Assembly (NCBI GenBank): GCA_030583865.1
Contig: CP129479.1
Location: 2,637,053-2,701,052, forward strand
Direction of reading: 5' to 3'
DNA: 64,000 nt
Source of the DNA: Thermodesulfobacteriota bacterium
Lineage (GTDB): Bacteria > Desulfobacterota > GWC2-55-46
A program made the position numbers and the translations under genes. The notes beneath the pieces were generated by a model that saw only the letters and a list, made by a program, of their open reading frames with translations, was not told where the DNA came from and did not search any database. Below are positions 1,348 to 37,919 of this stretch, one piece after another (the first letter of the stretch is position 1; the number at the start of each line of letters is the position of its first letter).

Positions 1348-1425
1348 GGCTATTCCTTTCTCCGGACTCCGGATTCATTTATGCGGAGGTCCGCGATGGG
1401 TTGCTCATAAACGTAATCGAATCAA

Positions 1426-1567
1426 GGCAACCTCTAAAAATTAGAGATTTTTCCCGCAATCAAGGAAGGCCGGGAATAAAAAGCGGAGCATATATGCAAA
1501 TATGTGAGCATTTTTATTCCCGGCCTGACACAGGGTCCGGGGAAAAGATCAATTTTTAGAGGTTGCC
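1426..1567. repeat. Family-1 MITE-like palindromic element, full copy
   Basis: Terminal inverted repeats GGCAACCTCTAAAAATT / AATTTTTAGAGGTTGCC. Inner stem GGCCGGGAATAAAAA / TTTTTATTCCCGGCC. Core AGCGGAGCATATATGCAAATATGTGAGCA. Near-identical copies occur at 12269, 18377, 25003 and 36782. Confidence 0.8.
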
Positions 1568-2362
1568 TCAAGATACCTTCCGCCTTGCGGCCGCGTCGAG
1601 GACCGTATAGGCGGCGCGGATCCCCAGGTAGCTCAGGTAATGGAGGCCGTTAAGGACCGCGGAATCCGTATACTTCCTTGCCACTTGAAGCTCCTCCTTG
1701 AACGTGCGGTGGAAAGAGCTCGAAGTCTTTGAGCCTGGATGCACCCTGAACAGGGCGAGCCGGTCGTCTATGAACCCCGGCGGGTATTTACGCCCGAGCC
1801 GGAGCCAGAACTCGTAGTCCATCACCCTGTGCTGCGACTCGTCAAAAAGGCCGAGCTCGCCGAAGGCCTCCCTCCTTATGAAGGTGGCCGGCTGCGATAT
1901 GAAGTTCGTGACAAGGAGTATATTATAGCCGTACCGCCGAAGCAAAAAGTTCTTGTACGCTGTTATATAGCGCCTCGTCTCCCTGCCCTTTGCGTCTATT
2001 ATCCCGCACTTGCCGGTAAGCCACAGGCATTCCGGGTGCGCCTGAAAGTACCCGGCGACTTTCTCAAGGGCCCCCGGCTCGTAGAGGTCGTCCGAGTTCA
2101 GATAGGCGATTATGTCCCCGGTCGCCTTCCTTATGCCCTTGTTTATGGCGTCGGACTGGCCCCGGTCGCGCTCCGAGACCCAGGCGAGCCGCTTCTCATA
2201 TCGTTTAAGGACATCCAGCGTTTCGTCTTTCGAGCCGCCGTCGACTACGAGGTATTCGAGTTCCGGATAATCCTGGCCGAGTACGCTTTCGATCGTGTCG
2301 CCTATAAAGCCCCCCTGGTTGTAGGAGGGCGTTATGACCGTTATCCTCGGAGGGTTCCTCAT
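1568..2362 (-). CDS. Family 2 glycosyltransferase
   Basis: ITVITPSYNQGGFIGDTIESVLGQDYP...YLVVDGGSKDET...SDDL motifs of GT2. There is a 4-nt overlap with the upstream GT4 gene. Confidence 0.8.
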   Translation of the reverse strand: MRNPPRITVITPSYNQGGFIGDTIESVLGQDYPELEYLVVDGGSKDETLDVLKRYEKRLAWVSERDRGQSDAINKGIRKATGDIIAYLNSDDLYEPGALEKVAGYFQAHPECLWLTGKCGIIDAKGRETRRYITAYKNFLLRRYGYNILLVTNFISQPATFIRREAFGELGLFDESQHRVMDYEFWLRLGRKYPPGFIDDRLALFRVHPGSKTSSSFHRTFKEELQVARKYTDSAVLNGLHYLSYLGIRAAYTVLDAAARRKVS

Positions 2363-6120: not shown

Positions 6121-6170
6121 AAGGCAGGCCTGACACAGAGTCCGGGGAAAAGATCCTTTTTGAGGTTGCC
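6121..6170. repeat. Family-1 element, right-arm fragment only
   Basis: GGCCTGACACAGAGTCCGGGGAAAAGATCCTTTTTGAGGTTGCC matches the right arm of the copy at 1426-1567. Confidence 0.7.
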
Positions 6171-7619
6171 TTAAGCCTCAAGCTCCACCGTACCGCCGGG
6201 CAACGAGGCCTCAAGCCGCTCCTTTATGAAGGCCTTTGCCTTGTCGAGCTTCTCCTGGTCAACTGCCTCGAACCTCAAGACCAGTACAGGCTGGGTGTTC
6301 GAGGCCCTTACAAGGGCCCAGCCGCCATCGAAGTTCACCCTGAGGCCGTCTATCTTGATGATGTCCCTTACCCGGAAGTCGTCCGAGCCCTGGCCGATTT
6401 CTCCCTCGAGCTTCTCGATTACCGAGAACTTGACCTCGTCAGGGCAGTCTATCCGTATCTCCGGGGTCACTACCGTCTCGGGGAGCCCCGAAAGCATGGA
6501 GGAGAAGCGGAAGGCGGGGTTTGCGGCCCTTTCCCTTGCGGCTATCTCGGCCACCCTGCACGAGGCGTAGATCGCGTCGTCAAAGCCGAACCATTTGTCC
6601 GCGAAGAAGATATGCCCGCTCATCTCTCCGGCCATCGCAGCGCCGAGCTCCTTCATCTTGGCCTTTATGAGCGAATGCCCGGTCTTCCACATCACAGGGT
6701 TCCCGCCCATGCGCGCTATCTCGTCGTACATGACCTGCGAGCATTTTACCTCGCCCACGATGGTCGCGCCCGGCTTTTCCTTCAATATGGATTTTGAAAA
6801 CACCACCATGAGCTTGTCGCCCCAGATTACCGACCCCCTCTCATCTACCATGCCAATTCTGTCAGCGTCGCCATCATAGGCGACCCCGAACTCGGCCCCG
6901 GTCCTCCTTACCGTCTCGATAAGGTCAAGGAGGTTATCCGTGACGGTCGGGTCCGGGTGATGGTTCGGGAACGAGCCGTCGGGCTCGCTATAGAGCTCGA
7001 TCACGTCGAACCCGAGCCTCTTGAGGAGCTTCGGGGCGACCGGCCCCGCGGTGCCGTTCCCTGAATCGAGGACGATCCTCATGCGCTTGGGTAATTCCGG
7101 TATATTGAAGGAGCCAGCGACGTAATCGATATAAGCCGGTATTATGTCGTGGATCTCGACAATGCCTGGCATCGCATCAACCGGCGGCTTCCCGAGGACC
7201 TCTTCCCTTATTATCTTTTTTACAGCCTGTATCTCCGAGCCGTGAATGGTCTCTTTCCCGACGCTCACCTTGAAGCCGTTATACTCCGGGGGGTTGTGGC
7301 TTCCGGTTATCATTATGCCGCCGCCCACCTTTAGCGTGTGCATGGAGAAATACTGTAGCGGCGTGGGGCACTCCCCTATGTCGATGACGTTTACGCCGCT
7401 CTGTGTGAGGCCCCGGACAAGCGCGTCCCGTATGGGCTTGGAGCTCGTCCTTACGTCCCTTCCGACCGTGATCTTGAAATCCGGGCCTATGTTCGCGCCC
7501 CGCCTTTGGGCGTATATGGCATAGGCCCTGCCCAGTAGCTCCGCGACCTCGGCGGTAAGGTCCTTCCCCCATGTGCCCCTTATGTCGTATTCCCTGAATA
7601 TCGCGTCAGAAATGCTCAT
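6171..7619 (-). CDS. manB: Phosphomannomutase / phosphoglucomutase
   Basis: TGSHNPPEYNGFK phosphoserine loop, GDGDADR Mg-binding motif and GEMSGHIFF sugar-binding loop. Confidence 0.9.
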   Translation of the reverse strand: MSISDAIFREYDIRGTWGKDLTAEVAELLGRAYAIYAQRRGANIGPDFKITVGRDVRTSSKPIRDALVRGLTQSGVNVIDIGECPTPLQYFSMHTLKVGGGIMITGSHNPPEYNGFKVSVGKETIHGSEIQAVKKIIREEVLGKPPVDAMPGIVEIHDIIPAYIDYVAGSFNIPELPKRMRIVLDSGNGTAGPVAPKLLKRLGFDVIELYSEPDGSFPNHHPDPTVTDNLLDLIETVRRTGAEFGVAYDGDADRIGMVDERGSVIWGDKLMVVFSKSILKEKPGATIVGEVKCSQVMYDEIARMGGNPVMWKTGHSLIKAKMKELGAAMAGEMSGHIFFADKWFGFDDAIYASCRVAEIAARERAANPAFRFSSMLSGLPETVVTPEIRIDCPDEVKFSVIEKLEGEIGQGSDDFRVRDIIKIDGLRVNFDGGWALVRASNTQPVLVLRFEAVDQEKLDKAKAFIKERLEASLPGGTVELEA

Positions 7620-11168: not shown

Positions 11169-12134
11169 TCAGGGCCTTCTCTTTCTGTTCACGGCCATCT
11201 CTACGGCCATCTCTATCGCCGCCCTGAGGCTAAAGTGGCTTGCTACACCCTTCCACGCGATGTCATAGGCGGTGCCGTGGTCTACCGAAGTCCTTATTAT
11301 GGGCAGGCCCAGTGTCGCGTTCACGCCGTCCTCGAAATGCTGCAGCTTCAAGGGCCCGAGCCCCTGGTCGTGGTACATGGCAAGCACGCAGTCGAACTCC
11401 TTTTTCCTGACCGTCCTGTAAAAGACCGTGTCAGCCGGGAGCGGCCCCAGCGCGTTTATGCCCTCTTTCCTCGCCTTTTTGACGGCCGGCGCTATGGCCT
11501 TTTTCTCCTCGTCACCGAATATGCCGCCCTCGCCAGCGTGCGGGTTCAAGCCGCATACCGCGATCCTCGGCCTCTTCATCCCGAAATCACGCGTAAAGGC
11601 CCGGTGCGTTACGCGGAGGGCCTTCAAAACAGCCTTCTCCGTCACGAGGCGCGGCACATTCTTAAGGGCCTCGTGGATGGTGACGAGCGCGACCTTGAGG
11701 TCCTTCCCTCCGAGCATCATGACGAAATCTTCGGTATCCGTAAGCTCGGCTATGAACTCGGTATGGCCCGGGAACCGGAAACCGGCGAGCTTCGCGGCTT
11801 CCTTGCTTATGGGGCAAGTCACCATCGCGTCCGCGTCGCCTATGGCGGTCATGAATACCGCCTCTTCTATGTAGCTTATGAGCGCCTCTCCCGCGGCTTT
11901 CACGGGCTTGCCGGGCTTGAGCCTTTTGAGGTCCAGCCTGGAAACTCCGATGACCTCGCTCTCGCGCGGCGCCTTCAACCCGAGCTTTCCGGCAAGATGG
12001 CTGAGGAGCCCCGCGTCACCGACTACTATAGGGTTGCAGAGCGCCCTCACCCTTTTATCACCGAGGGCCTTTAGTGCGAGCTCGGGGCCGACGCCGGCGG
12101 GGTCGCCCATGGTTATGGCTATGTTGGGTTTCAT
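11169..12134 (-). CDS. pdxA: 4-hydroxythreonine-4-phosphate dehydrogenase
   Basis: MKPNIAITMGDPAGVGPE... HTEF... NPHAGEGG motifs. The start is set at the internal ATG 12134. Confidence 0.85.
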   Translation of the reverse strand: MKPNIAITMGDPAGVGPELALKALGDKRVRALCNPIVVGDAGLLSHLAGKLGLKAPRESEVIGVSRLDLKRLKPGKPVKAAGEALISYIEEAVFMTAIGDADAMVTCPISKEAAKLAGFRFPGHTEFIAELTDTEDFVMMLGGKDLKVALVTIHEALKNVPRLVTEKAVLKALRVTHRAFTRDFGMKRPRIAVCGLNPHAGEGGIFGDEEKKAIAPAVKKARKEGINALGPLPADTVFYRTVRKKEFDCVLAMYHDQGLGPLKLQHFEDGVNATLGLPIIRTSVDHGTAYDIAWKGVASHFSLRAAIEMAVEMAVNRKRRP

Positions 12135-12196
12135 AAATTTTCCAGTGGCCGGGCATGCAGGGGGAATCACATTAAAACTCTAAATCTACTCTAACC

Positions 12197-12265
12197 TGTC
12201 ATTCCGAGGGAGCGTCAGCGACCGAAGAATCAGATACGAGATTCTTCGCTACGCTCAGATTGACA
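12197..12265. repeat. Family-2 palindromic element, short copy
   Basis: TGTCATTCCGAGGGAGCGTCAGCGACCGAAGAATC...GAGATTCTTCGCTACGCTCAGATTGACA; its arms are reverse complements of each other. Confidence 0.75.
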
Positions 12266-12268
12266 TAT

Positions 12269-12409
12269 GGCAACCTCTTAAAATTAGAGATTTTCCCGCT
12301 TTTCACGGAAGGCCGGGAATAAAAAGCGGCGCATAGATAATGTGTGGGCATTTTTATTCCCGTAACACTACCCAGAGTCCGGGGAAAAGATCAATTTTTT
12401 AGAGGTTGC
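12269..12409. repeat. Family-1 MITE-like element, full copy
   Basis: Same inverted-repeat termini and core as 1426-1567 with a few substitutions; lies directly next to a family-2 copy. Confidence 0.8.
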
Positions 12410-12415
12410 AAAAAC

Positions 12416-13363
12416 TCACTGCATCCTTATCTCAATATGCGCGAACTTCCTGGTCTCGTTAAGCCAGAAGCTGTACCTCTCGTCCATTATCTTTTTGAAG
12501 AGCCTGTCCTGTATCTCTCCCCTCACCTCCGCGAGCGGCCTCGGCGCCCGGGGCAGGTAATCCGAGAGACGGACGAAGTAGACGCCCTCTGGCCTCTCGA
12601 TTGCCGGGCTCACCTCGCCGGGCTTGAGCTTAGAGGCGGCCTCCTCCAGCCAGGGCTCAAGCTCCCCGGATTTCAGGAGCCCCAGGTCGCCTCCGGCAGA
12701 CGCCGCGGGCCCCTCTGAGTACTGGCTTGCCAGGTCCCTGAAGTCCTCGCCTGCCCGGAGGCCGCCCGCTATGAGGTTCAAGCGCCTCGCGAGGACGTCC
12801 TTGTCGTTGCCGGGCAGGAATATGATATGAAGCCTGAAAAGGGCGGGGGACTGGAAATTATCGATATTGCGGCGGTAGTAGTCCTCTATGTCCTCGGGCT
12901 GGATGGATATCCTTGACCTGAACTCCCTGTTCACGAACTTCACCTGGCGTATCTGCTCTTTGAGCTGCTCCCTGTATTCCTTCTGGGTCAGGCCGTTTTC
13001 GGCCAGAGCGAGAAGGAGCTGCTCCTGAGTCAGCCTGTTCTGCTTTTTAATATCGTCAACGGCGTTGTCTATCTCCCGCTCGCTCACCTCTATGCCAGCC
13101 TTGTCCGCCGCCTGTTTCACAAGCCGCTGCTCTATTAGCCCCTCAAGTATCCCGCCTTCCATCTCGCGGGCCTTTTCAGGGTCGATTGCGCCGCCTTCCA
13201 CCCCGAGCCTCTCCATTGCCACGGCGGTCGCGGCCTTGAGCTCGGATAGCGTTATGATGCTGTCGTTAATGACCGCCACGACCTTGTCCACCACCTCGGC
13301 GCGGGCCTGGGCGGGGGAGAAGAGCATTGCGGCAAGCGCCAGGGCGGCGATGAACCCTCTCAC
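12416..13363 (-). CDS. SurA-like periplasmic chaperone / peptidyl-prolyl isomerase
   Basis: GTG start gives MRGFIAALALAAMLFSPAQA (signal peptide), a SurA N-terminal domain and a PpiC-type PPIase domain; 4-nt overlap with the upstream gene. Confidence 0.75.
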   Translation of the reverse strand: MRGFIAALALAAMLFSPAQARAEVVDKVVAVINDSIITLSELKAATAVAMERLGVEGGAIDPEKAREMEGGILEGLIEQRLVKQAADKAGIEVSEREIDNAVDDIKKQNRLTQEQLLLALAENGLTQKEYREQLKEQIRQVKFVNREFRSRISIQPEDIEDYYRRNIDNFQSPALFRLHIIFLPGNDKDVLARRLNLIAGGLRAGEDFRDLASQYSEGPAASAGGDLGLLKSGELEPWLEEAASKLKPGEVSPAIERPEGVYFVRLSDYLPRAPRPLAEVRGEIQDRLFKKIMDERYSFWLNETRKFAHIEIRMQ

Positions 13364-14316
13364 AGGAGCCCCTCCCGTATCTCTATCCTGGAAGAGCGCT
13401 TCCTCTCGGCTATCCACTCGTCCAGGATGGCCGCGGTCTTCTCGTTTTTGAGGCGCTCTACTATCCTGGCCCTGACCTCCGGATACGGGACCGGCCCGCC
13501 CTTCCTCTTTTCCTCAAGGAGGAATATGTGGAAACCGTATTCCGTCTTGACCACCTGGCTTATCTCCCCCGGCTTGAGGCTGAAGACCACGGCCTCGAAC
13601 TCGTTCGGCATATCACCGGCCCCGAAGTACCCGAGGCTTCCGCCCTCCTTGCCCTCTGGGCTCAGGGAGACCTCCTTCGCGATTTCTCCGAAGTTTTCAG
13701 GGGTGATCCTTTCCCTGACTTCCGTAGCGTCCTCCTCCGAGGCGACGACGATCATCCTGGCCCTGACCTGCTCGGGCCTCGAAAACCCTTCCTTGTTCTG
13801 CTCGTAATACTGCCTTGCCTCCTTTTCGGAGACCTTTGCCAGGCTTGTTATCGACTCGATGGCCTTTTTGACCAGGAGCTTCCTCTTGATCTTCTCCTCC
13901 CACTCGCCGAGGCTGCCGTAGCGCGACTCTATCGCCGCCCTGAAAGAGGCGTCGCCGTACTCCTTTTTTATAAGGTCAACCTCCGCCGCGAGCTCTGCCG
14001 CGCCCACGGTAATGCCGGCCCTCTCGGCCTCCTCGAGCAGGAGCTCCTCTTCTACCATCTCGGCTACGAGCTCTTTTTTCAGCTCAATGAACTCGCCCGC
14101 CTCTTCGCCCTTCTCCGAGGGCACCAGCCGCTTAAGCGCGTCCCTGTACTCCCCGGCTGTTATCGAGCGCCCGTTGACCTTGATTATGACCTCACCGGAG
14201 TCGTCCTTGAAGTAGCCGCACCCGGCTGCGAGCGCCAAAAAAAAGAGGAGTGCGAAGGCCTTCAACAGCCCGCTCCCTGGGCGCTTTTTAATAGGTAAAC
14301 CCCTGCCGGCCATCAT
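13360..14316 (-). CDS. PpiC-type peptidyl-prolyl isomerase lipoprotein (PrsA/SurA-like)
   Basis: LALAAGC lipobox and a C-terminal parvulin domain (GGSLGYFGAGDMPNEFEAVVFSLKPGE). Confidence 0.7.
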   Translation of the reverse strand: MMAGRGLPIKKRPGSGLLKAFALLFFLALAAGCGYFKDDSGEVIIKVNGRSITAGEYRDALKRLVPSEKGEEAGEFIELKKELVAEMVEEELLLEEAERAGITVGAAELAAEVDLIKKEYGDASFRAAIESRYGSLGEWEEKIKRKLLVKKAIESITSLAKVSEKEARQYYEQNKEGFSRPEQVRARMIVVASEEDATEVRERITPENFGEIAKEVSLSPEGKEGGSLGYFGAGDMPNEFEAVVFSLKPGEISQVVKTEYGFHIFLLEEKRKGGPVPYPEVRARIVERLKNEKTAAILDEWIAERKRSSRIEIREGLL

Positions 14317-18376: not shown

Positions 18377-18519
18377 GGCAACCTCTAAAAAATTAGAGAT
18401 TTTTCCCGTAATCAAGGAAGGCCGGGAATAAAAATGCTCACATATTATCATATATGCTCCGCTTTTTATTCCCGGCCTGACACAGAATCCGGGGAAAAGA
18501 TCAATTTTTAGAGGTTGCC
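18377..18519. repeat. Family-1 MITE-like element with the central core in inverted orientation
   Basis: Termini match the other copies, but the core reads TGCTCACATATTATCATATATGCTCCGCT, which is the reverse complement of the core in copies at 1426 and 12269. Confidence 0.8.
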
Positions 18520-19319
18520 AGGGCTTCGACGAGCTGCCTGAAGGAGGGATGATACGGGCCCGCGGCAATGGATTCCTCAAGCTCTTTCCCGGGCTGGAGG
18601 CCCATGCGGATCACGGGCACGCCTGCCTCGTCAAGGAGCCGCTTGACCTGCACGCATGCCTCTGTCATTTCTTCGAGCCCCCACGGGCTGTAGAGCCCGC
18701 CTAAATACATCCTGTGCATGGCCGTGCCCTTGAGGACGAGCGAGGGATAGACCCTTACGAAATCAGGCTTGAGGGCGATTATTTTTTGGGTTGTGTCGAG
18801 TATGGTTTCAATCGAATCGCCCGGGAGGCCGGGCATGAACTGGAGGCCCACCTTGAGCCCGGCGTCTTTAAGCGCGGCCACGGCAGCTATTGTCGCATCC
18901 GGGCCGTGCCCCCTTCCGGAGAGCGCAAGCACCTTCGGGTCCATTGACTGCACACCGAGCTCTACTGTCCTTACCCCATTATGCAAAAGAAAAACAGCCC
19001 TTTGAACGTCGATGTAGTCGGGCCTGGTAGAGACCCTTATTGAATCGAGCCTGCCGTCCCTTATAAACGGGAGAGCCGCCTCGAGATAGTCTTTCTGGGT
19101 CTTTTCCGGGAGGCCGGTGAAGCTGCCGCCGTAAAAGGCGGCCTCGCGCGCGCCCTTGCCCTTCCATGTGGAAAGATAGAGCTCGATTTGCCTTGCCGCC
19201 TCCGTTGGCTCTGGCAGCTCCCTTACCGCGGATATGCCCTTCTGGTCGCAGAACACGCACTGGTGGGGGCAGCCGCCGAAAGGGATGAAGATGGGGATTA
19301 TGAGCTGCTTATGCGCCAT
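18501..19319 (-). CDS. Radical SAM protein (ELP3 / TIGR01212-like)
   Basis: IFIPFGGCPHQCVFCDQ CxxxCxxC cluster motif near the N-terminus; the last ~6 codons and the stop are encoded by the right TIR of the family-1 element. Confidence 0.7.
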   Translation of the reverse strand: MAHKQLIIPIFIPFGGCPHQCVFCDQKGISAVRELPEPTEAARQIELYLSTWKGKGAREAAFYGGSFTGLPEKTQKDYLEAALPFIRDGRLDSIRVSTRPDYIDVQRAVFLLHNGVRTVELGVQSMDPKVLALSGRGHGPDATIAAVAALKDAGLKVGLQFMPGLPGDSIETILDTTQKIIALKPDFVRVYPSLVLKGTAMHRMYLGGLYSPWGLEEMTEACVQVKRLLDEAGVPVIRMGLQPGKELEESIAAGPYHPSFRQLVEALATSKN

Positions 19320-20061: not shown

Positions 20062-20257
20062 AATACACCTCCGGCTGGTCGTGTGGCTGAAAAGATTGAC
20101 GGTGCGCGGAGCGCACCCTGCTACTGCGCTAACCCTCGCGTGCTATCACGGGGTACTTCAGCTTCCCCCTTTTCTAAAGGGGGACAGAGGGGGATTAGAA
20201 TGGTGCGCACAGCGCGCCCTACGAGATAATCTCCCCTGCCCCTCTTCAGGGAAGGTC

Positions 20258-20366
20258 TGATTGATTCGCAAATTTTGTCATTCTGAGCGAAGCGAAGAAT
20301 CTCGTATTCAGGAAAATCCGCGAGTTACGAGATTCTTCGGTCGCTTACGCTCCCTCAGAATGACAA
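20258..20366. repeat. Family-2 palindromic element with conserved GATTGATTCGCAAATTT leader
   Basis: TGTCATTCTGAGCGAAGCGAAGAATCTCG...CGAGATTCTTCGGTCGCTTACGCTCCCTCAGAATGACA. It is preceded at 20095-20255 by two further hairpin repeats, including the family-3 motif CTCCCCTGCCCCTCT. Confidence 0.8.
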
Positions 20367-20378
20367 AAATACTACTGG

Positions 20379-22856: not shown

Positions 22857-22985
22857 ATAAAGAATCAGACGTTTTGCCAGAGAAAAGTTGGGGGGAGGAA
22901 ACGCAGGACGGATTTCAGGGAACATCTGATTGGTTCGCGAATGTTTGTCATTCTGAGCAAAGCGAAGAATCTGTATTTATGAATA

Positions 22986-24855: not shown

Positions 24856-24952
24856 TTGATTGCAGATTCGAATTCTGTCATTCTGAACGAAGTGAAGAAT
24901 CTGGTTTGGTTGAAATACGAGATTCTTCGTCGCTTCGCTTCTCAGAATGACA
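24856..24952. repeat. Family-2 palindromic element
   Basis: GATTGCAGATTCGAATTCTGTCATTCTGAACGAAGTGAAGAATC...GAGATTCTTCGTCGCTTCGCTTCTCAGAATGACA; followed by the family-3 motif CTCCCCCTGCCCCTCTTTAAGAAAGAGGGG at 24961-24990. Confidence 0.8.
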
Positions 24953-25002
24953 CTCTTAATCTCCCCCTGCCCCTCTTTAAGAAAGAGGGGTGAATTAAAT
25001 AA

Positions 25003-25129
25003 AGATTTTTCCCCGCTTTTCCAGAAGGTCGGGAATAAAAAGCGGAGCATATATGACAATATGTGAGCATTTTTATTCCCGGCCTGACAAAGAGTCCGGG
25101 GAAAAGATCAATTTTTATAAGACAATTCT
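25003..25129. repeat. Family-1 MITE-like element with degenerate termini
   Basis: The core GGGAATAAAAAGCGGAGCATATATGACAATATGTGAGCATTTTTATTCCCGGCC is conserved, but the outer TIRs have diverged. Confidence 0.75.
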
Positions 25130-25150: not shown

Positions 25151-26332
25151 TCAACCCTTGCCCCCTGCCGCGTAGAGCGGCGACATGGCCCGCATCCGCT
25201 CGACTATGGGCGGCATTGTCTCGAGGAGAAAGTCTATCTCCTCTGCGGTGTTTGATTTCCCCAGGCTGAACCTGACTGAGCCGTGCGAAAGCTCGTGGGT
25301 AAGGCCCATTGCGATGAGCACATGAGAGGGCTCAAGGCTCCCGGATGTGCAGGCAGAGCCGCTTGAGGCCGCAATGCCCTTCATGTCGAGGTTAAGGAGG
25401 AGCGATTCGCCCTCCACGAACTCGAAGCTGATGTTCGAGGTGTTGGGTAGCCTCTTATCCGCGTGCCCGTTCACCTTTATGTGCGGCACCCTCTCGGCCA
25501 TGCCCTTCTCAAGCCTGTCCCTCAGGGATTTAAGGTGCTCTATCTCCTTGTCCATGTCGCGTAGCGCTATTTCCGCTGCCTTGCCCATGCCGACTATTCC
25601 GGCCACGTTCTCGGTTCCGCCGCGCCTGTTCCTCTCGTGGTGGCCGCCGTGGATAAGGGGCACGAGCCGCACGCCCCTTTTAACAAAGAGCGCGCCTATT
25701 CCCTTGGGGCCGTAGAGCTTGTGCCCGGATATGGTAAGGAGGTCGCAGTTGATGTCCTTTACGTCTATTTTGGCCTTCCCTGCGGCCTGGACAGCGTCCG
25801 TGTGGAAGGCTATTCCCTTTTCCTTCGCTATCGCGCCTATCTCCTTCATGGGGAAGAGGACGCCTGTCTCGTTATTGGCGAACATGACGGATATTAGGAT
25901 AGTCTTGGGGGTGATGGCGGCCTTTAGCTCGTCGAGGCTTATGAGGCCGTCGTTATCCACGCCAAGATAAGTGACCTCGAAGCCCTCCTTCTGGAGGTGC
26001 TTGCAGGTATTCAAGACCGCCGGGTGCTCGACTGCGGTCGTTATGATGTGGTTGCCCTTGTCTTTCTTCGCGTAGGCGAGGCCCTTCAGGGCGTGGTTGT
26101 CGCCCTCGGTGCCGGAGCTTGTGAAGATGAGCTCGGTATTCGTGCAGTTAAGGAGGGCGCAGACCTTCTCCCTTGCGTCCTCGACCGCCTTCCTCGTGCC
26201 GCGGCCTGCCCAGTGTATGGATGAGGGGTTGCCCCACTGCTCTTTAAGAAACGGGACCAGGGCCTCGAATACCTCTTCGGGCACAGGGGTCGTCGCGTTG
26301 TGGTCAAAGTAGATCCGGTTCAATGTGCTCAA
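25151..26332 (-). CDS. nifS: Cysteine desulfurase
   Basis: Class V aminotransferase with the PLP lysine in SGHKLYGPKGIGAL and the active Cys in SSGSACTSG. Confidence 0.9.
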   Translation of the reverse strand: MSTLNRIYFDHNATTPVPEEVFEALVPFLKEQWGNPSSIHWAGRGTRKAVEDAREKVCALLNCTNTELIFTSSGTEGDNHALKGLAYAKKDKGNHIITTAVEHPAVLNTCKHLQKEGFEVTYLGVDNDGLISLDELKAAITPKTILISVMFANNETGVLFPMKEIGAIAKEKGIAFHTDAVQAAGKAKIDVKDINCDLLTISGHKLYGPKGIGALFVKRGVRLVPLIHGGHHERNRRGGTENVAGIVGMGKAAEIALRDMDKEIEHLKSLRDRLEKGMAERVPHIKVNGHADKRLPNTSNISFEFVEGESLLLNLDMKGIAASSGSACTSGSLEPSHVLIAMGLTHELSHGSVRFSLGKSNTAEEIDFLLETMPPIVERMRAMSPLYAAGGKG

Positions 26333-26402
26333 GCCTCCCTTTTCTCTTCATTTACTCTTAGGATCTGATACCCCGCCGCTTGCGGTCGTGTTTGCTTTTG
26401 AC

Positions 26403-26486
26403 TCCTCCCCCTTGATGGGGGAGGCTGGGAGGAGGTGAAGAGGTTTCACCCTCCCCTCTTATCCCCTCCCATCAAGGGAGGGGAGG
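26403..26486. repeat. Long palindrome between iscR and nifS
   Basis: CTCCTCCCCCTTGATGGGGGAGG ... CCTCCCATCAAGGGAGGGGAGG: inverted arms about 40 bp apart. Confidence 0.6.
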
Positions 26487-29448: not shown

Positions 29449-29522
29449 GGATTGAATACGAGATTCTTCGGTCGCGGAGTTTACCCTGAGCGAAGCGAAG
29501 GGCCTCGTTCTGCAGAATGACA
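29449..29522. repeat. Family-2 element, rearranged copy
   Basis: GATTGAATACGAGATTCTTCGGTCGC ... CTGAGCGAAGCGAAG ... CAGAATGACA. Confidence 0.6.
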
Positions 29523-36776: not shown

Positions 36777-36781
36777 TTGAG

Positions 36782-36920
36782 GGTTCCTCTAAAAATCAGA
36801 TATTTTTTCCGAGGTCGAGGCAGGGCGGAAATAAAAAGCGGAGCATATATGTCAATATGTGAGCATTTTTATTTTCGCCCTAACGAAGAGGTCGGGAAAA
36901 AGAGCGATTTTAGGGGGACC
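36782..36920. repeat. Family-1 MITE-like element, degenerate copy
   Basis: Core GGAAATAAAAAGCGGAGCATATATGTCAATATGTGAGCATTTTTATTTTCGCC with diverged termini. Confidence 0.7.
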
Positions 36921-36923
36921 CTT

Positions 36924-37919
36924 CTAAAGCCCTTTAAGCTCGGCTATCTCCCTCTCAGTCAAGTGCCTCCATTCGCCCGGCTTAAGAGCACCTAATTTAA
37001 GCCCCGCGAACTCTATCCTCTTAAGTTTCTGCACCGGGTGGCCTATGGCCTGGCACATCCTCTTGACCAGATGGTTCCTGCCCTCGAATACCGTAAGCTC
37101 TATCCACGAGTTCTGGCGCGTGGCCCTCACGAACCTCACCTTTGCCGGAAGGGTCTTCCCGTCCTCCAAATGGACCCCGTCTTCGAGCTTCTTAAGCCTC
37201 TCCTTCGTGGGCACGTCGCTTACCTTCACGAGGTACTTCTTCGGGACCTGGAAGGTCGGGTGTATGAGCTTATTCGAGAAGTCTCCGTCGTTCGTAAGGA
37301 GGAGCACCCCCTCGGCGTCGTAGTCGAGCCTCCCGACGGGATATACCCTGGCCTTTACGGCAGAGACGAGCTGCGTGACGACCGGCCTTCCGGCCTCGTC
37401 GGATACGGAGCTTATGAAGCCCTTGGGCTTATTGAGTAGGACGTATACCCTGGGCCCGCCGTGCCTGACCCTTTTTCCGTCTACCTCTATCCTGTCGTTA
37501 ACCGGGTCTGCCTTTGCGCCGAGCTCAGTTACTGCCCTCCCGTTCACCCTCACCCGGCCCTCGGTTATCATCTCCTCGGCCTTCCTCCGTGAGGTTATCC
37601 CCGCGTTCGCTATTATCTTCTGGAGCCTCTCCTGTTGCGGCGCCTCCGGAGGCGCTTCCCTCTTCGGACTCCTCCCAGCCGCCCCCTTCGCCGTCCGGGA
37701 AGCCGTCGGCCTCCGGCCCCTCTTCAGGCCCGGAGATGTCGGCCTCTCCTTCCTCCCCGGCTTCGAGGGCCTCTCCTCTTTCCTCGCTTCTTCCGTCCCC
37801 CTCCGGCGCGCTGTCCCGGGCCCTTTCCTCGGCGCTTTCTCCGCCCTCGGGGCTTCCTTCCGCCCTGACCGCCCCCCCGGCTCCGTCTTCCTCGGCTCCC
37901 TGCCCTTCTTCCCGGGCAT
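36924..37919 (-). CDS. rluB: 23S rRNA pseudouridine synthase (RluB/RsuA family) with basic N-terminal tail
   Basis: S4 domain (ERLQKIIANAGITSRRKAEEMI) plus catalytic VGRLDYDAEGVLLLTNDG. The first ~100 aa are K/R/P-rich and read from a GA-rich tract shared with the scpB tail. Confidence 0.8.
   Translation of the reverse strand: MPGKKGREPRKTEPGGRSGRKEAPRAEKAPRKGPGTARRRGTEEARKEERPSKPGRKERPTSPGLKRGRRPTASRTAKGAAGRSPKREAPPEAPQQERLQKIIANAGITSRRKAEEMITEGRVRVNGRAVTELGAKADPVNDRIEVDGKRVRHGGPRVYVLLNKPKGFISSVSDEAGRPVVTQLVSAVKARVYPVGRLDYDAEGVLLLTNDGDFSNKLIHPTFQVPKKYLVKVSDVPTKERLKKLEDGVHLEDGKTLPAKVRFVRATRQNSWIELTVFEGRNHLVKRMCQAIGHPVQKLKRIEFAGLKLGALKPGEWRHLTEREIAELKGL

What the first reader, a model, noticed from the sequence alone, without database searches (positions are those of the whole stretch)
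1426..1567. Family-1 ~140-bp MITE-like element present in six copies in 64 kb
Full or near-full copies lie at 1426-1567, 12269-12409, 18377-18519, 25003-25129 and 36782-36920, with a right-arm fragment at 6121-6170. All share 17-bp terminal inverted repeats (GGCAACCTCTAAAAATT / AATTTTTAGAGGTTGCC), an inner 14-bp inverted repeat (GGGAATAAAAA / TTTTTATTCCC) and a conserved ~29-bp core (AGCGGAGCATATATG-CAAATATGTGAGCA). Every copy is intergenic, mostly at gene 3' ends. This is roughly one copy per 6-10 kb and would be an unusually dense repeat family. The repeat DNA also explains three spurious ORF-track peptides that share the motif GIKSGAYMxICEHFY.
Basis: seen in the sequence. Interest (0 to 1): 0.6.

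Follow-up and report, generated by a model that had tools for sequence, protein, structure and literature searches.

The report
ERIC-like mobile hairpin repeat family
The repeat is real: it is a small non-coding mobile element (a MITE) that folds into one long hairpin, and it is a distant relative, in uncultured groundwater "Deltaproteobacteria", of the classic enterobacterial ERIC repeat.

Summary
They belong to a dispersed family: the 22-nt core alone occurs in at least 120 stretches from 18 groundwater MAGs. Mobility is shown, not just inferred. 35 of 56 intact copies carry a perfect 4-bp target duplication (TWWA, mostly TTAA). Copy 1 has a clean empty site in a close relative, where a single TTGA holds the stop codon. 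The element is not a new kind. A covariance model built only from ten enterobacterial ERIC copies returns four window copies as its top four hits, all on the same strand. The reverse model finds ERIC copies at their exact coordinates. A scan using only the terminal repeats reveals a wide superfamily. Its stems covary, and its unpaired blocks are conserved: AAGGCA, GNAG-hairpin-UGAG and AACGCAG. One strand always folds about 13 kcal/mol better because of G·U pairs. This holds in 92/92 family copies, 15/17 metagenome clusters and 10/10 ERICs. Orientation depends on distance to the upstream stop codon (Fisher p = 6e-8). This points to constraint on a single-stranded form, most likely RNA. The transposase is unknown. 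The ends differ from ERIC (GG…CC termini and a 4-bp duplication, against TA).

The parts
1422..1425 (.). Left copy of the 4-bp target-site duplication (TCAA) of copy 1
   Evidence: Read. The empty site in L281/L282 has a single TTGA on the gene strand.
1426..1567 (+). Copy 1, full length (142 nt). TIR-L 1426-1442; inner stem 1467-1482 / 1511-1526; apical module 1483-1510 (GCGGAG-CAUAU..AUAUG-UGAGCA); TIR-R 1551-1567.
   Evidence: RNA fold -76.2 kcal/mol, z -10.95. R1 scores 164.8 bits on + against 77.4 on -. The ERIC-only model R3 scores 21.7 bits, E 7e-4.
1568..1571 (.). Right copy of the TSD (TCAA). Bases 1568-1570 are the TGA stop codon of the minus-strand family-2 glycosyltransferase gene 1568..2362.
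6121..6170 (+). Right-arm fragment (inner-loop remnant, second stem and TIR-R). It abuts the TAA stop codon of the minus-strand phosphoglucomutase-family gene 6171..7619.
   Evidence: repeat family D2, 89% identity over 38 nt
12269..12410 (+). Copy 2, with a diverged apical module. It lies between surA-like (12416..13417) and pdxA (11169..12170). A Family-2 repeat abuts its left end.
   Evidence: R1 97.5 bits
18377..18519 (+). Copy 3. Its right TIR encodes the last 5 codons and the stop codon of the radical-SAM gene 18501..19319.
   Evidence: An orthologous copy lies in L021 (UBA5799).
18435..18462 (-). 28-nt apical module of copy 3, inverted in situ between the 16-nt inner inverted repeats
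   Evidence: pair I2, 97% complementary to copy 1. One search shows the orthologous L021 copy has the usual orientation. Only 1 of about 110 full copies is flipped.
24989..25129 (+). Copy 4. The body is intact and both termini are degenerate. It lies 21 nt from the stop codon of the class-V aminotransferase gene 25151..26332.
   Evidence: R1 103.9 bits; R3 14.0 bits
36781..36922 (+). Copy 5. It belongs to a subfamily with compensatory changes in the TIR and inner stem. It lies 1 nt from the stop codon of the RluB-like gene 36924..37919.
   Evidence: -67.0 kcal/mol on + against -44.7 on -; R1 149.4 bits; R3 15.3 bits

Best explanation
The repeat is a non-autonomous DNA transposon (MITE) of an ERIC-like superfamily.

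Shown: an unidentified enzyme acting in trans inserted copies at T-W-W-A tetranucleotides and duplicated 4 bp. In this GC-rich genome such sites are mostly stop codons and short spacers. Copies therefore pile up at gene 3' ends and avoid divergent promoter regions.

Shown: the ~140-nt body is constrained on one specific strand to fold into a long irregular hairpin. Its stems covary. Its unpaired blocks are conserved: AAGGCA on the left, GNAG-[5-6-bp hairpin closed by a G·U pair]-UGAG at the apex, and AACGCAG on the right.

Inferred: the constrained single strand is the RNA made when the element is co-transcribed with its neighbours. As proposed for ERIC, the hairpin then acts on the flanking mRNA (3'-end stability or RNase access), with an effect that depends on orientation. 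This would explain why orientation depends on distance from the upstream stop codon.

Inferred, weakly: the mobilising enzyme is a DDE transposase that makes 4-bp staggered cuts.
For: Mobility:
- 35 of 56 copies with intact GG…CC ends have a perfect 4-bp flanking repeat, against 10% in permuted flanks. TTAA is commonest, and T and A at the outer positions occur in 48/56.
- Copy 1 has a clean empty site in L281/L282 with a single TTGA.
- At least 120 stretches in 18 MAGs carry the core 22-mer, and 165 copies were found in 850 kb.
- An orthologous copy is shared with a genome at 86% identity.

Structure:
- Folds give z-scores of -7 to -11.
- Within the family, 22 pairs change on both sides against 14.8±1.7 in shuffles, 0/500.
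- Across 28 diverse members, 43 of 56 pairs change on both sides against 30.1±2.2. The covariation score is 0.487 against 0.167, and 89% of cells are paired against at most 53% when partners are slid.

Strand specificity:
- G·U cells outnumber A·C cells 432 to 160.
- Among within-genome minority states, G·U outnumbers A·C 51 to 23, p = 0.0015, although overall transitions favour A·C-making changes.
- The + strand folds better in 92/92 copies (-59.0 against -45.4 kcal/mol), whatever the flanking-gene orientation. The same holds in 15/17 metagenome clusters and 10/10 ERICs.

RNA-level signal:
- Stop codons touching or overlapping an element end are 40 at the right end against 9 at the left.
- Gene ends 13-300 nt away are 13 at the right against 35 at the left. 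Fisher p = 6e-8.
- Only 4 of 128 copies lie between divergent genes.

Relation to ERIC:
- The ERIC-only model R3 gives window copies as its top four hits, all on + and end to end (21.7, 15.3, 14.0 and 13.3 bits).
- The superfamily model R2 hits ERIC copies at their exact coordinates in 4 of 6 loci (14.8-20.6 bits). It also hits Pseudomonas (47.4 bits) and Halomonas (33.1 bits) elements.
- The two share the blocks CTCTAAA.AATT.GAG, AGGAAGGC, GGAGC.UA..UA.GUGA and ACGCAG.
Against: - No autonomous element or transposase with matching termini was found in 850 kb of related loci.
- The individual E-values linking the family to ERIC are weak (7e-4 to 0.28). Two of six ERIC loci gave no hit.
- The diverse alignment A9 was fitted to the model's structure, which inflates pairing counts.
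- No transcript data exist.
- Overall sense/antisense orientation is unbiased, 47 to 59.
- The stop-codon rule was not seen in the AT-rich cluster 0, 7 to 5.
- No promoter or canonical terminator lies in the element.
- G·T wobble is also tolerated in single-stranded DNA, so RNA is not proven.
- The ends differ from ERIC (4-bp TSD and GG…CC, against TA).
Confidence: 0.75

Rival explanations
1. The element is purely selfish palindromic DNA with no RNA role. Arm complementarity and the conserved blocks exist because the mobilising enzyme or host DNA factors bind both arms. Alternatively, the element must form a hairpin in single-stranded DNA of one strand during transposition or replication.
For: Overall orientation relative to genes is unbiased. 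The element has no promoter or terminator. Neighbouring copies tend to share orientation, 47 to 26 at 1 kb or more, p = 0.019. This could reflect replication direction. Deletion derivatives and a loop inversion are typical of DNA hairpin processing.
Against: Binding of duplex DNA does not predict G·U over A·C on one strand. It also does not predict the dependence of orientation on distance to the stop codon. The target motif and the stop codons supplied by both termini are symmetric, so they do not explain that dependence. A single-stranded-DNA version remains possible.
Confidence: 0.17
2. The element is a free-standing small structured RNA gene family with its own promoter that happens to be repeated.
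For: Covariation is strong and unpaired nucleotides are conserved. No known Rfam family matches, so it could be an undescribed RNA.
Against: The copies have target-site duplications and an empty site. No promoter-like site was found. There are hundreds of copies, inside operons such as surA-pdxA and overlapping gene ends. Copies occur in both orientations relative to genes.
Confidence: 0.05
3. The element is a known non-MITE repeat or site: a REP/BIME-REPIN, an integron attC site, or an intrinsic terminator cassette.
For: It is palindromic, lies at gene 3' ends, and has the same orientation in all window copies.
Against: It is 142 nt long, not 20-40 nt. It has no GTAG/CGTC head, and it has TSDs, which REPs lack. 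The neighbours are housekeeping genes syntenic with other genomes, with no cassette array. The terminator scan found nothing in the element.
Confidence: 0.03

Closest known systems
ERIC / IRU / RU-1 (enterobacterial repetitive intergenic consensus)
   Same: Both are imperfect palindromes of about 130-140 bp that fold into one long hairpin. Both are intergenic, lie near gene 3' ends, and are non-coding MITEs with no known transposase. They share sequence blocks in the same order. They share the apical motif GA / GA flanking a covarying 5-6-bp hairpin closed by a G·U pair. The reciprocal covariance-model hits agree. The same strand folds about 13 kcal/mol better in both. Both have longer variants with an insert of about 70-77 nt at one internal site (for ERIC this is from my memory of Sharp 1997 and Wilson & Sharp 2006). 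Both have internal-deletion derivatives. Orientation depends on proximity to stop codons in both (for Yersinia ERIC this is from my memory of De Gregorio et al. 2005). ERIC's RNase E, orientation-dependent effect is summarised in PMC2229807, PMC3184786 and PMC10969869.
   Different: ERIC is 127 bp, has TA at its termini and duplicates TA (PMC2759123, PMC2229807). This family is 142 bp, has GG…CC termini and duplicates 4 bp, TWWA. ERIC is reported from Enterobacteriaceae and Vibrionaceae (PMC10969869, PMC2759123). This family is in uncultured 'Deltaproteobacteria'/Thermodesulfobacteriota MAGs. Plain sequence similarity is too low for BLAST. Only profile and structure models connect the two.
Correia / NEMIS elements of Neisseria
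   Same: These are MITEs of 100-155 bp with long TIRs. They are co-transcribed with neighbours, and their RNA hairpin is processed by an RNase (RNase III; PMC10969869, PMC2229807). No transposase is known.
   Different: Correia elements duplicate TA and have 24-26-bp TIRs. The long form has an IHF site, and some ends create promoters. No sequence relation was seen or tested here.
IS5-family insertion sequences and their MITEs
   Same: They make a 4-bp target duplication at an A/T-rich tetranucleotide, and their termini begin with GG. This is from my own knowledge of ISfinder descriptions. The second repeat family in the same genomes duplicates TTAG and has IS5-like ends.
   Different: No IS5-type transposase or autonomous partner was found. 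The target here is TWWA rather than strict YTAR. IS5-derived MITEs are not known for a conserved structured body.
REP / BIME / REPIN elements with RAYT transposases
   Same: These are abundant intergenic palindromes that affect mRNA ends. The single-stranded hairpin form is the one that matters.
   Different: REPs are 20-40 bp with a GTAG or CGTC head, lack TIRs and TSDs, and are moved by HUH enzymes (PMC3733652, PMC3116915). None of these features is present here.

Membership tests
MITE (generic) | Small (<300 bp), no coding capacity, terminal inverted repeats | tested here: met
   The element is 142 nt with 17-nt TIRs. The only ORFs are spurious read-through peptides.
MITE (generic) | Target-site duplication of fixed length | tested here: met
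   The duplication is 4 bp. 35 of 56 copies are perfect, against 10% in permuted flanks. Lengths 2, 3, 5 and 6 fail.
MITE (generic) | Filled and empty sites in related genomes | tested here: met
   Copy 1 compared with L281/L282. The empty site has a single TTGA. The filled site has TTGA, the element, then TTGA.
MITE (generic) | Many dispersed copies | tested here: met
MITE (generic) | A cognate autonomous element with the same termini that encodes the transposase | tested here: inconclusive
   None was found in 850 kb of loci. Whole genomes could not be scanned.
ERIC / IRU | Imperfect palindrome of about 127 bp forming one long hairpin | tested here: met
   The element is 142 nt and folds at -51 to -76 kcal/mol. 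The helix and loop layout matches the ERIC consensus fold.
ERIC / IRU | Similarity to the ERIC consensus | tested here: met
   The similarity is distant. The ERIC-only model R3 gives window copies as its four best hits, the best at 21.7 bits, E 7e-4. R2 hits 4 of 6 ERIC loci at their exact coordinates. There is no BLAST-level similarity.
ERIC / IRU | TA at the termini and duplication of TA on insertion (PMC2759123, PMC2229807) | tested here: not met
   Termini are GG…CC and the TSD is 4 bp, TWWA.
ERIC / IRU | Occurrence in Enterobacteriaceae and Vibrionaceae (PMC10969869) | tested here: not met
   The hosts are 'Deltaproteobacteria'/Thermodesulfobacteriota MAGs. Related elements also occur in Pseudomonas and Halomonas.
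ERIC / IRU | Co-transcription with flanking genes and an orientation-dependent effect on mRNA | not testable with these tools
   Only the positional signature could be tested. Orientation depends on distance to the stop codon.
IS5-family-derived MITE | 4-bp duplication at YTAR, GG/GA termini, matching IS5 transposase | tested here: inconclusive
   The 4-bp TSD and GG termini fit. The target is TWWA, which is looser than YTAR.
REP / REPIN | 20-40-bp palindrome with a GTAG/CGTC head and no TSD | tested here: not met
Integron attC | R''/R' core sites (RYYYAAC/GTTRRRY), a cassette array with intI, and no TSD | tested here: not met
   Most subfamilies lack the AAC/GTT cores. TSDs are present. The neighbours are syntenic housekeeping genes.
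Any Rfam 15 family | Score at or above the family's gathering threshold | tested here: not met
   There are no hits at gathering thresholds in the window or in 8 loci other than tRNAs. Permissive scans give only chance-level microRNA-like hits.
Intrinsic terminator | GC-rich stem followed directly by a U-tract | tested here: not met

The most novel reading that the evidence does not exclude
The ERIC-type hairpin may be an ancient functional RNA module found across phyla, not just the leftover ends of one insertion sequence. The same body recurs with different terminal sequences and different target duplications. It has covarying stems, a conserved G·U-closed apical hairpin flanked by GNAG/UGAG, and AAGGCA and AACGCAG internal loops. 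It was seen in Thermodesulfobacteriota-type MAGs, AT-rich metagenome hosts, Pseudomonas, Halomonas, prophage-like contigs and Enterobacterales. This would imply a conserved partner that reads the single-stranded fold. Candidates are a ribonuclease, an RNA-binding protein, or a mobilising enzyme acting on one strand. It would also define an RNA class missing from Rfam.
Probability: 0.3. Interest if true: 0.7.

Novelty: new variant of a known kind. Interest (0 to 1): 0.5.

Why it matters
ERIC has been used for strain typing for over 30 years. Its origin, its mobilising enzyme and the reason for its sequence conservation remain unresolved, and reviews place it only in enterics and vibrios. Distant relatives appear in another phylum and in Pseudomonas and Halomonas. 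This turns a single-lineage curiosity into a comparative dataset. Three things follow. First, the dataset separates what is conserved (the fold, three unpaired blocks and one strand) from what is not (stem sequences, termini and duplication length). Second, it supplies recently active copies with clean duplications and empty sites, in which the missing transposase can be sought. Third, it gives a positional rule, orientation against distance to the stop codon, that can be tested directly with reporters. For annotation, the family explains spurious ORFs, short C-terminal gene extensions and contig breaks in these MAGs.

Tried and rejected
- Rfam at gathering and permissive thresholds gave nothing relevant.
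- The sigma-70 promoter and intrinsic-terminator scans of two copies found nothing in the element.
- A viral-contig scan with the 22-mer gave 0 hits.
- A viral scan with the degenerate core pattern gave 25 hits, about the number expected by chance. Only about 8 were true relatives, judged by flanking hairpin and motifs.
- I searched for solo TIRs or an autonomous partner in the loci. All solo TIRs were explained by nested insertions, truncations or mini-derivatives.
- Long within-genome repeats next to copies were duplicated ordinary gene regions with no transposase, possibly assembly variants.
- tblastn with IS5 InsH found no hit.
- My first coding-strand heuristic (longest ORF) mis-called strands in this GC-rich genome. 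I replaced it with a codon-usage model.
- RNAalifold on a plain MAFFT alignment of 92 copies failed to recover the hairpin. I projected the structure from copy 1 instead.
- The apparent hyper-conservation of the core was partly ascertainment. In 13 copies not selected by the core, core identity (0.90) is about equal to TIR identity (0.89).
- Two candidate empty sites among the fetched loci were not clean. L119 has unrelated spacer sequence, and L093 carries a deletion derivative.
- Full texts of Wilson & Sharp 2006 and De Gregorio et al. 2005 are not held. Statements taken from them are marked as memory.
- A sequence-string search of the literature found nothing.

Full report
**1. Observation**

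The window holds five full copies of a ~142-bp repeat: 1426-1567, 12269-12410, 18377-18519, ~24989-25129 and 36781-36922. A right-arm fragment lies at 6121-6170. The quoted 17-nt TIR occurs six times within 3 mismatches, against 0.12 expected. The core 15-mer occurs six times against 0.99 expected.

- Copy 5 has a compensated TIR variant.
- Copy 4 has degenerate termini.
- Copy 2 has a diverged core.
- In copy 3 the 28-nt core is inverted relative to the asymmetric arms.

The flanking genes are ordinary chromosomal genes. They are a family-2 glycosyltransferase, a phosphoglucomutase-family protein, a CI-like repressor, SurA, PdxA, a radical-SAM protein, a class-V aminotransferase and an RluB-like pseudouridine synthase. 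The right end of every copy lies 0-21 nt from the stop codon of a minus-strand gene. In copy 3 the TIR itself encodes the last five residues and the stop codon.

**2. The family is dispersed and mobile**

An exact 22-mer from the core occurs in at least 120 stretches from 18 species-level MAGs. Most are labelled 'Deltaproteobacteria bacterium' from groundwater, and one is labelled Thermodesulfobacteriota. It found none in viral contigs. A profile search of these loci found 165 distinct copies, 114 of them full length.

Of 56 copies with intact GG…CC ends, 35 are flanked by a perfect 4-bp direct repeat. The rate with permuted flanks is 10%. Other repeat lengths do not fit. The duplicated tetranucleotide is T-W-W-A: TTAA 12, TTTA 7, then TCAA, TACA, TAAA and others.

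Copy 1 has a textbook empty site. On the gene strand the window reads …TCTTGA[element]TTGATTCGAT…. Two contigs from a relative, whose glycosyltransferase is 90% identical, read …TTTTGATTCGAT… with a single TTGA. That TTGA contains the stop codon. Copy 3 is an old insertion. An orthologous copy lies in UBA5799, which is syntenic with the window at 86% identity.

No Rfam family matches.

**3. Anatomy and structural constraint**

Each copy folds into one long irregular hairpin, with RNA energies of -51 to -76 kcal/mol and z-scores of -7 to -11. The layout, from the outside in, is:
- the TIR stem;
- a second stem (UUUUUCCCG / CGGGGAAAA);
- an asymmetric internal loop (…CAAGGAAGG on the left, …UGACGCAG… on the right);
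- a 16-bp inner stem;
- an apical module, GCGGAG-CAUAU-loop-AUAUG-UGAGCA.

Within the family, 22 of 56 pairs change on both sides, against 14.8±1.7 in shuffles (0/500). Pairing is 88.8%, against at most 56% when partners are slid.

The pairing is strand specific.
- G·U cells outnumber A·C cells 432 to 160.
- Among minority states within single genomes, G·U outnumbers A·C 51 to 23 (p = 0.0015). By events the count is 42 to 19 (p = 0.004). Overall transitions in the elements favour the A·C-making kind.
- In 92 of 92 copies the + strand folds better than its complement. The means are -59.0 and -45.4 kcal/mol. This holds whichever way the neighbouring genes run.

**4. A superfamily**

I ran a metagenome scan that specified only the two TIR cores and left the interior free. 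They fall into 17 clusters at 80% identity. All have the same length and layout, but their stems and apical hairpins are entirely different.

Three unpaired blocks persist across the clusters:
- CAAGG(A/C)A on the left;
- G(C/G)AG-[covarying 5-6-bp hairpin]-UGAG(C/G)A at the apex;
- (U/C)(A/G)ACGC(A/C)G on the right.

In 15 of 17 clusters the same strand folds better.

A covariance model of the family (R1) finds these diverged clusters at full length, with much higher scores on the + strand. On 28 diverse members, 43 of 56 pairs change on both sides, against 30.1±2.2 in shuffles. The covariation score is 0.487 against 0.167. Pairing is 89%, against at most 53% when slid. That alignment was fitted to the model, which favours the structure.

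The apical module also occurs inside long hairpins with other outer arms. These lie in prophage-like contigs. One of them has BLAST relatives on Pseudomonas and Halomonas plasmids.

**5. Relation to ERIC**

The apical module resembles the centre of the enterobacterial ERIC repeat, CCCCAG-GAGCUUAC-AUAA-GUAAGUGA-CUGGGG. I tested the link in both directions.

- The superfamily model R2 was run with filters off over nine loci (17.8 kb). It hit the Pseudomonas veronii element (47.4 bits, E 1.6e-8) and the Halomonas element (33.1 bits). It hit ERIC copies at exactly their coordinates, on the co-linear strand and end to end, in four of six loci: Lelliottia 20.6, Citrobacter 17.6, Klebsiella 17.2 and E. 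coli 14.8 bits.
- Model R3 was built only from ten ERIC copies of Escherichia, Salmonella, Klebsiella, Citrobacter, Lelliottia and Rahnella. It was run with filters off over the whole 64-kb window. Its four best hits were copies 1, 5, 4 and 3, all on the + strand and end to end (21.7 bits, E 7e-4; then 15.3, 14.0 and 13.3 bits).

The ERIC consensus fold has the same layout. It includes the G·U pair that closes the apical hairpin next to GA/GA. In 10 of 10 ERIC copies the co-linear strand folds better, -56.1 against -43.6 kcal/mol.

Each score is weak on its own. Their coincidence with element boundaries and strand at eight independent places is not plausibly chance.

I therefore place the family in one superfamily with ERIC, but not in ERIC proper. 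ERIC has TA termini and duplicates TA (PMC2759123, PMC2229807), and reviews place it in Enterobacteriaceae and Vibrionaceae (PMC10969869). This family has GG…CC termini, a 4-bp duplication and a different host phylum.

**6. Position and orientation**

I called coding strands with a codon-usage model. Family copies then lie between co-directional genes (47 sense, 59 antisense) or convergent genes (18). They almost never lie between divergent genes (4).

Orientation depends on distance to the upstream ORF.
- When a stop codon touches or overlaps an element end, it is the right end in 40 cases and the left end in 9 (p = 9e-6).
- When the gene ends 13-300 nt away, the counts are 13 and 35.
- Fisher's test on the 2×2 table gives p = 6e-8.

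The target motif is symmetric, and both termini supply stop codons in two of three frames. Insertion mechanics therefore do not explain the rule. All window copies follow it.

In the AT-rich cluster 0 only the 'far' preference is seen: 23 to 12 far, 7 to 5 near.

As I recall De Gregorio et al. (2005), Yersinia ERICs next to stop codons prefer one orientation and distant ones the other, with orientation-dependent, RNase E-linked effects on upstream mRNA. The reviews held here confirm the RNase E and orientation part (PMC2229807, PMC3184786, PMC10969869).

**7. Mechanism**

Shown: insertion at TWWA with a 4-bp duplication, followed by vertical persistence. Also shown: strand-specific structural constraint on the whole body, conserved unpaired blocks, and an orientation rule tied to translation stops.

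Inferred: the constrained single strand is RNA made by co-transcription, and it modulates the 3' ends of flanking mRNA as proposed for ERIC.

Inferred, weakly: a DDE transposase makes the 4-bp staggered cuts. IS5-like enzymes fit the duplication length and the GG termini, but no partner was found.

A single-stranded-DNA reading of the strand asymmetry is not excluded. Neighbouring copies share orientation more often than not, 47 to 26 at 1 kb or more apart, p = 0.019.

**8. Secondary events**

- The apical module of copy 3 was inverted in situ between the inner inverted repeats. This is the only such case among about 110 full copies.
- A ~215-nt variant in four MAGs carries a ~77-nt structured insert at one fixed site in the right arm.
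- Deletion derivatives and 27-45-bp minimal forms occur.
- A second MITE family has inserted repeatedly at the same TTAG in the left arm.

**9. Verdict**

The feature is real and mobile. It is an ERIC-like structured MITE in a new host lineage with different ends. I classify it as a new variant of a known kind. Its interest is moderate, mainly because it makes the old questions about ERIC's mobility and function open to comparative and experimental test.

Noticed in passing
window ~12197-12265, 20240-20370, 22941-22975, 24871-24950 (weak 29474-29508); L034, L056, L064, L076, L077, L089: A second repeat family is present. It is a ~80-nt palindrome, TGTCATTCTGAGCGAAGCGAAGAATCTCG…CGAGATTCTTCG…CTCAGAATGACA. 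In other MAGs it carries termini GGGAAGGTCTGATTAATTC… that resemble the IS5 inverted repeat (from memory). It is inserted at the same TTAG of the Family-1 left arm in at least six independent loci, with TTAG duplicated. In the window it abuts copy 2 and lies about 50 nt from copy 4.
   Followed up: partly
L015, L016, L022, L039, L041, L051, L054, L081, L084, L095, L098, L101, L105, L108, L113, L115; L083 2470-2653: A ~215-nt long variant of the element carries a ~77-nt structured module (TCCTGGCCGGACGGGCAAAT…CTTTGGCCCTGCGCCGAGCAG) at one fixed site in the right arm. Two free tandem copies of a similar module lie between a tRNA and a trigger-factor-like gene in L083. There is no Rfam match.
   Followed up: partly
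window 18435-18462 vs L021 5403-5545: The 28-nt apical loop of copy 3 was inverted in situ between 16-nt inverted repeats. The orthologous copy in UBA5799 has the usual orientation. This is a small hairpin-loop flip of the kind known from chloroplast genomes.
   Followed up: yes
window 18400-18415 vs L021 (alignment columns 87-98): The orthologous copies differ in the left internal-loop variant (GTAATCAAGG against GCTTTTCCCGG). Both variants coexist among copies within each genome. This suggests gene conversion between copies.
   Followed up: no
L093 ~7430-7510 vs L042 1846-1978; L043 ~347, L044 ~4495, L033 ~3584: Deletion derivatives occur. An orthologous copy has lost its inner stem and apex. 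There are also 45-bp mini-elements and a 27-bp TIR-only palindrome.
   Followed up: partly
L051 800-1196: A long-variant copy sits exactly between two tRNA genes (tRNAs at 800-872 and 1123-1196; element at 882-1118).
   Followed up: no
window 26402-26485: An unrelated 31-nt inverted repeat, CTCCTCCCCCTTGATGGGGGAGG… / …CCTCCCATCAAGGGAGGGGAG, has its arms 22 nt apart (pair I15).
   Followed up: no
L279/L280 10796-11851 vs window and L281: In the closest relatives (glycosyltransferase 94% identical) a DUF3800 gene lies between the glycosyltransferase and the mannose-1-phosphate guanylyltransferase. The window has copy 1 at that place, and L281 has neither.
   Followed up: no
L003 1679-4967 vs L037 2051-5337; L052 vs L089: Short contigs of one MAG duplicate 1.7-3.3 kb of longer contigs at 98-99% identity, starting exactly at a Family-1 copy but with different left flanks. 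This indicates either recombination between copies or assembly breaks at the repeat.
   Followed up: partly
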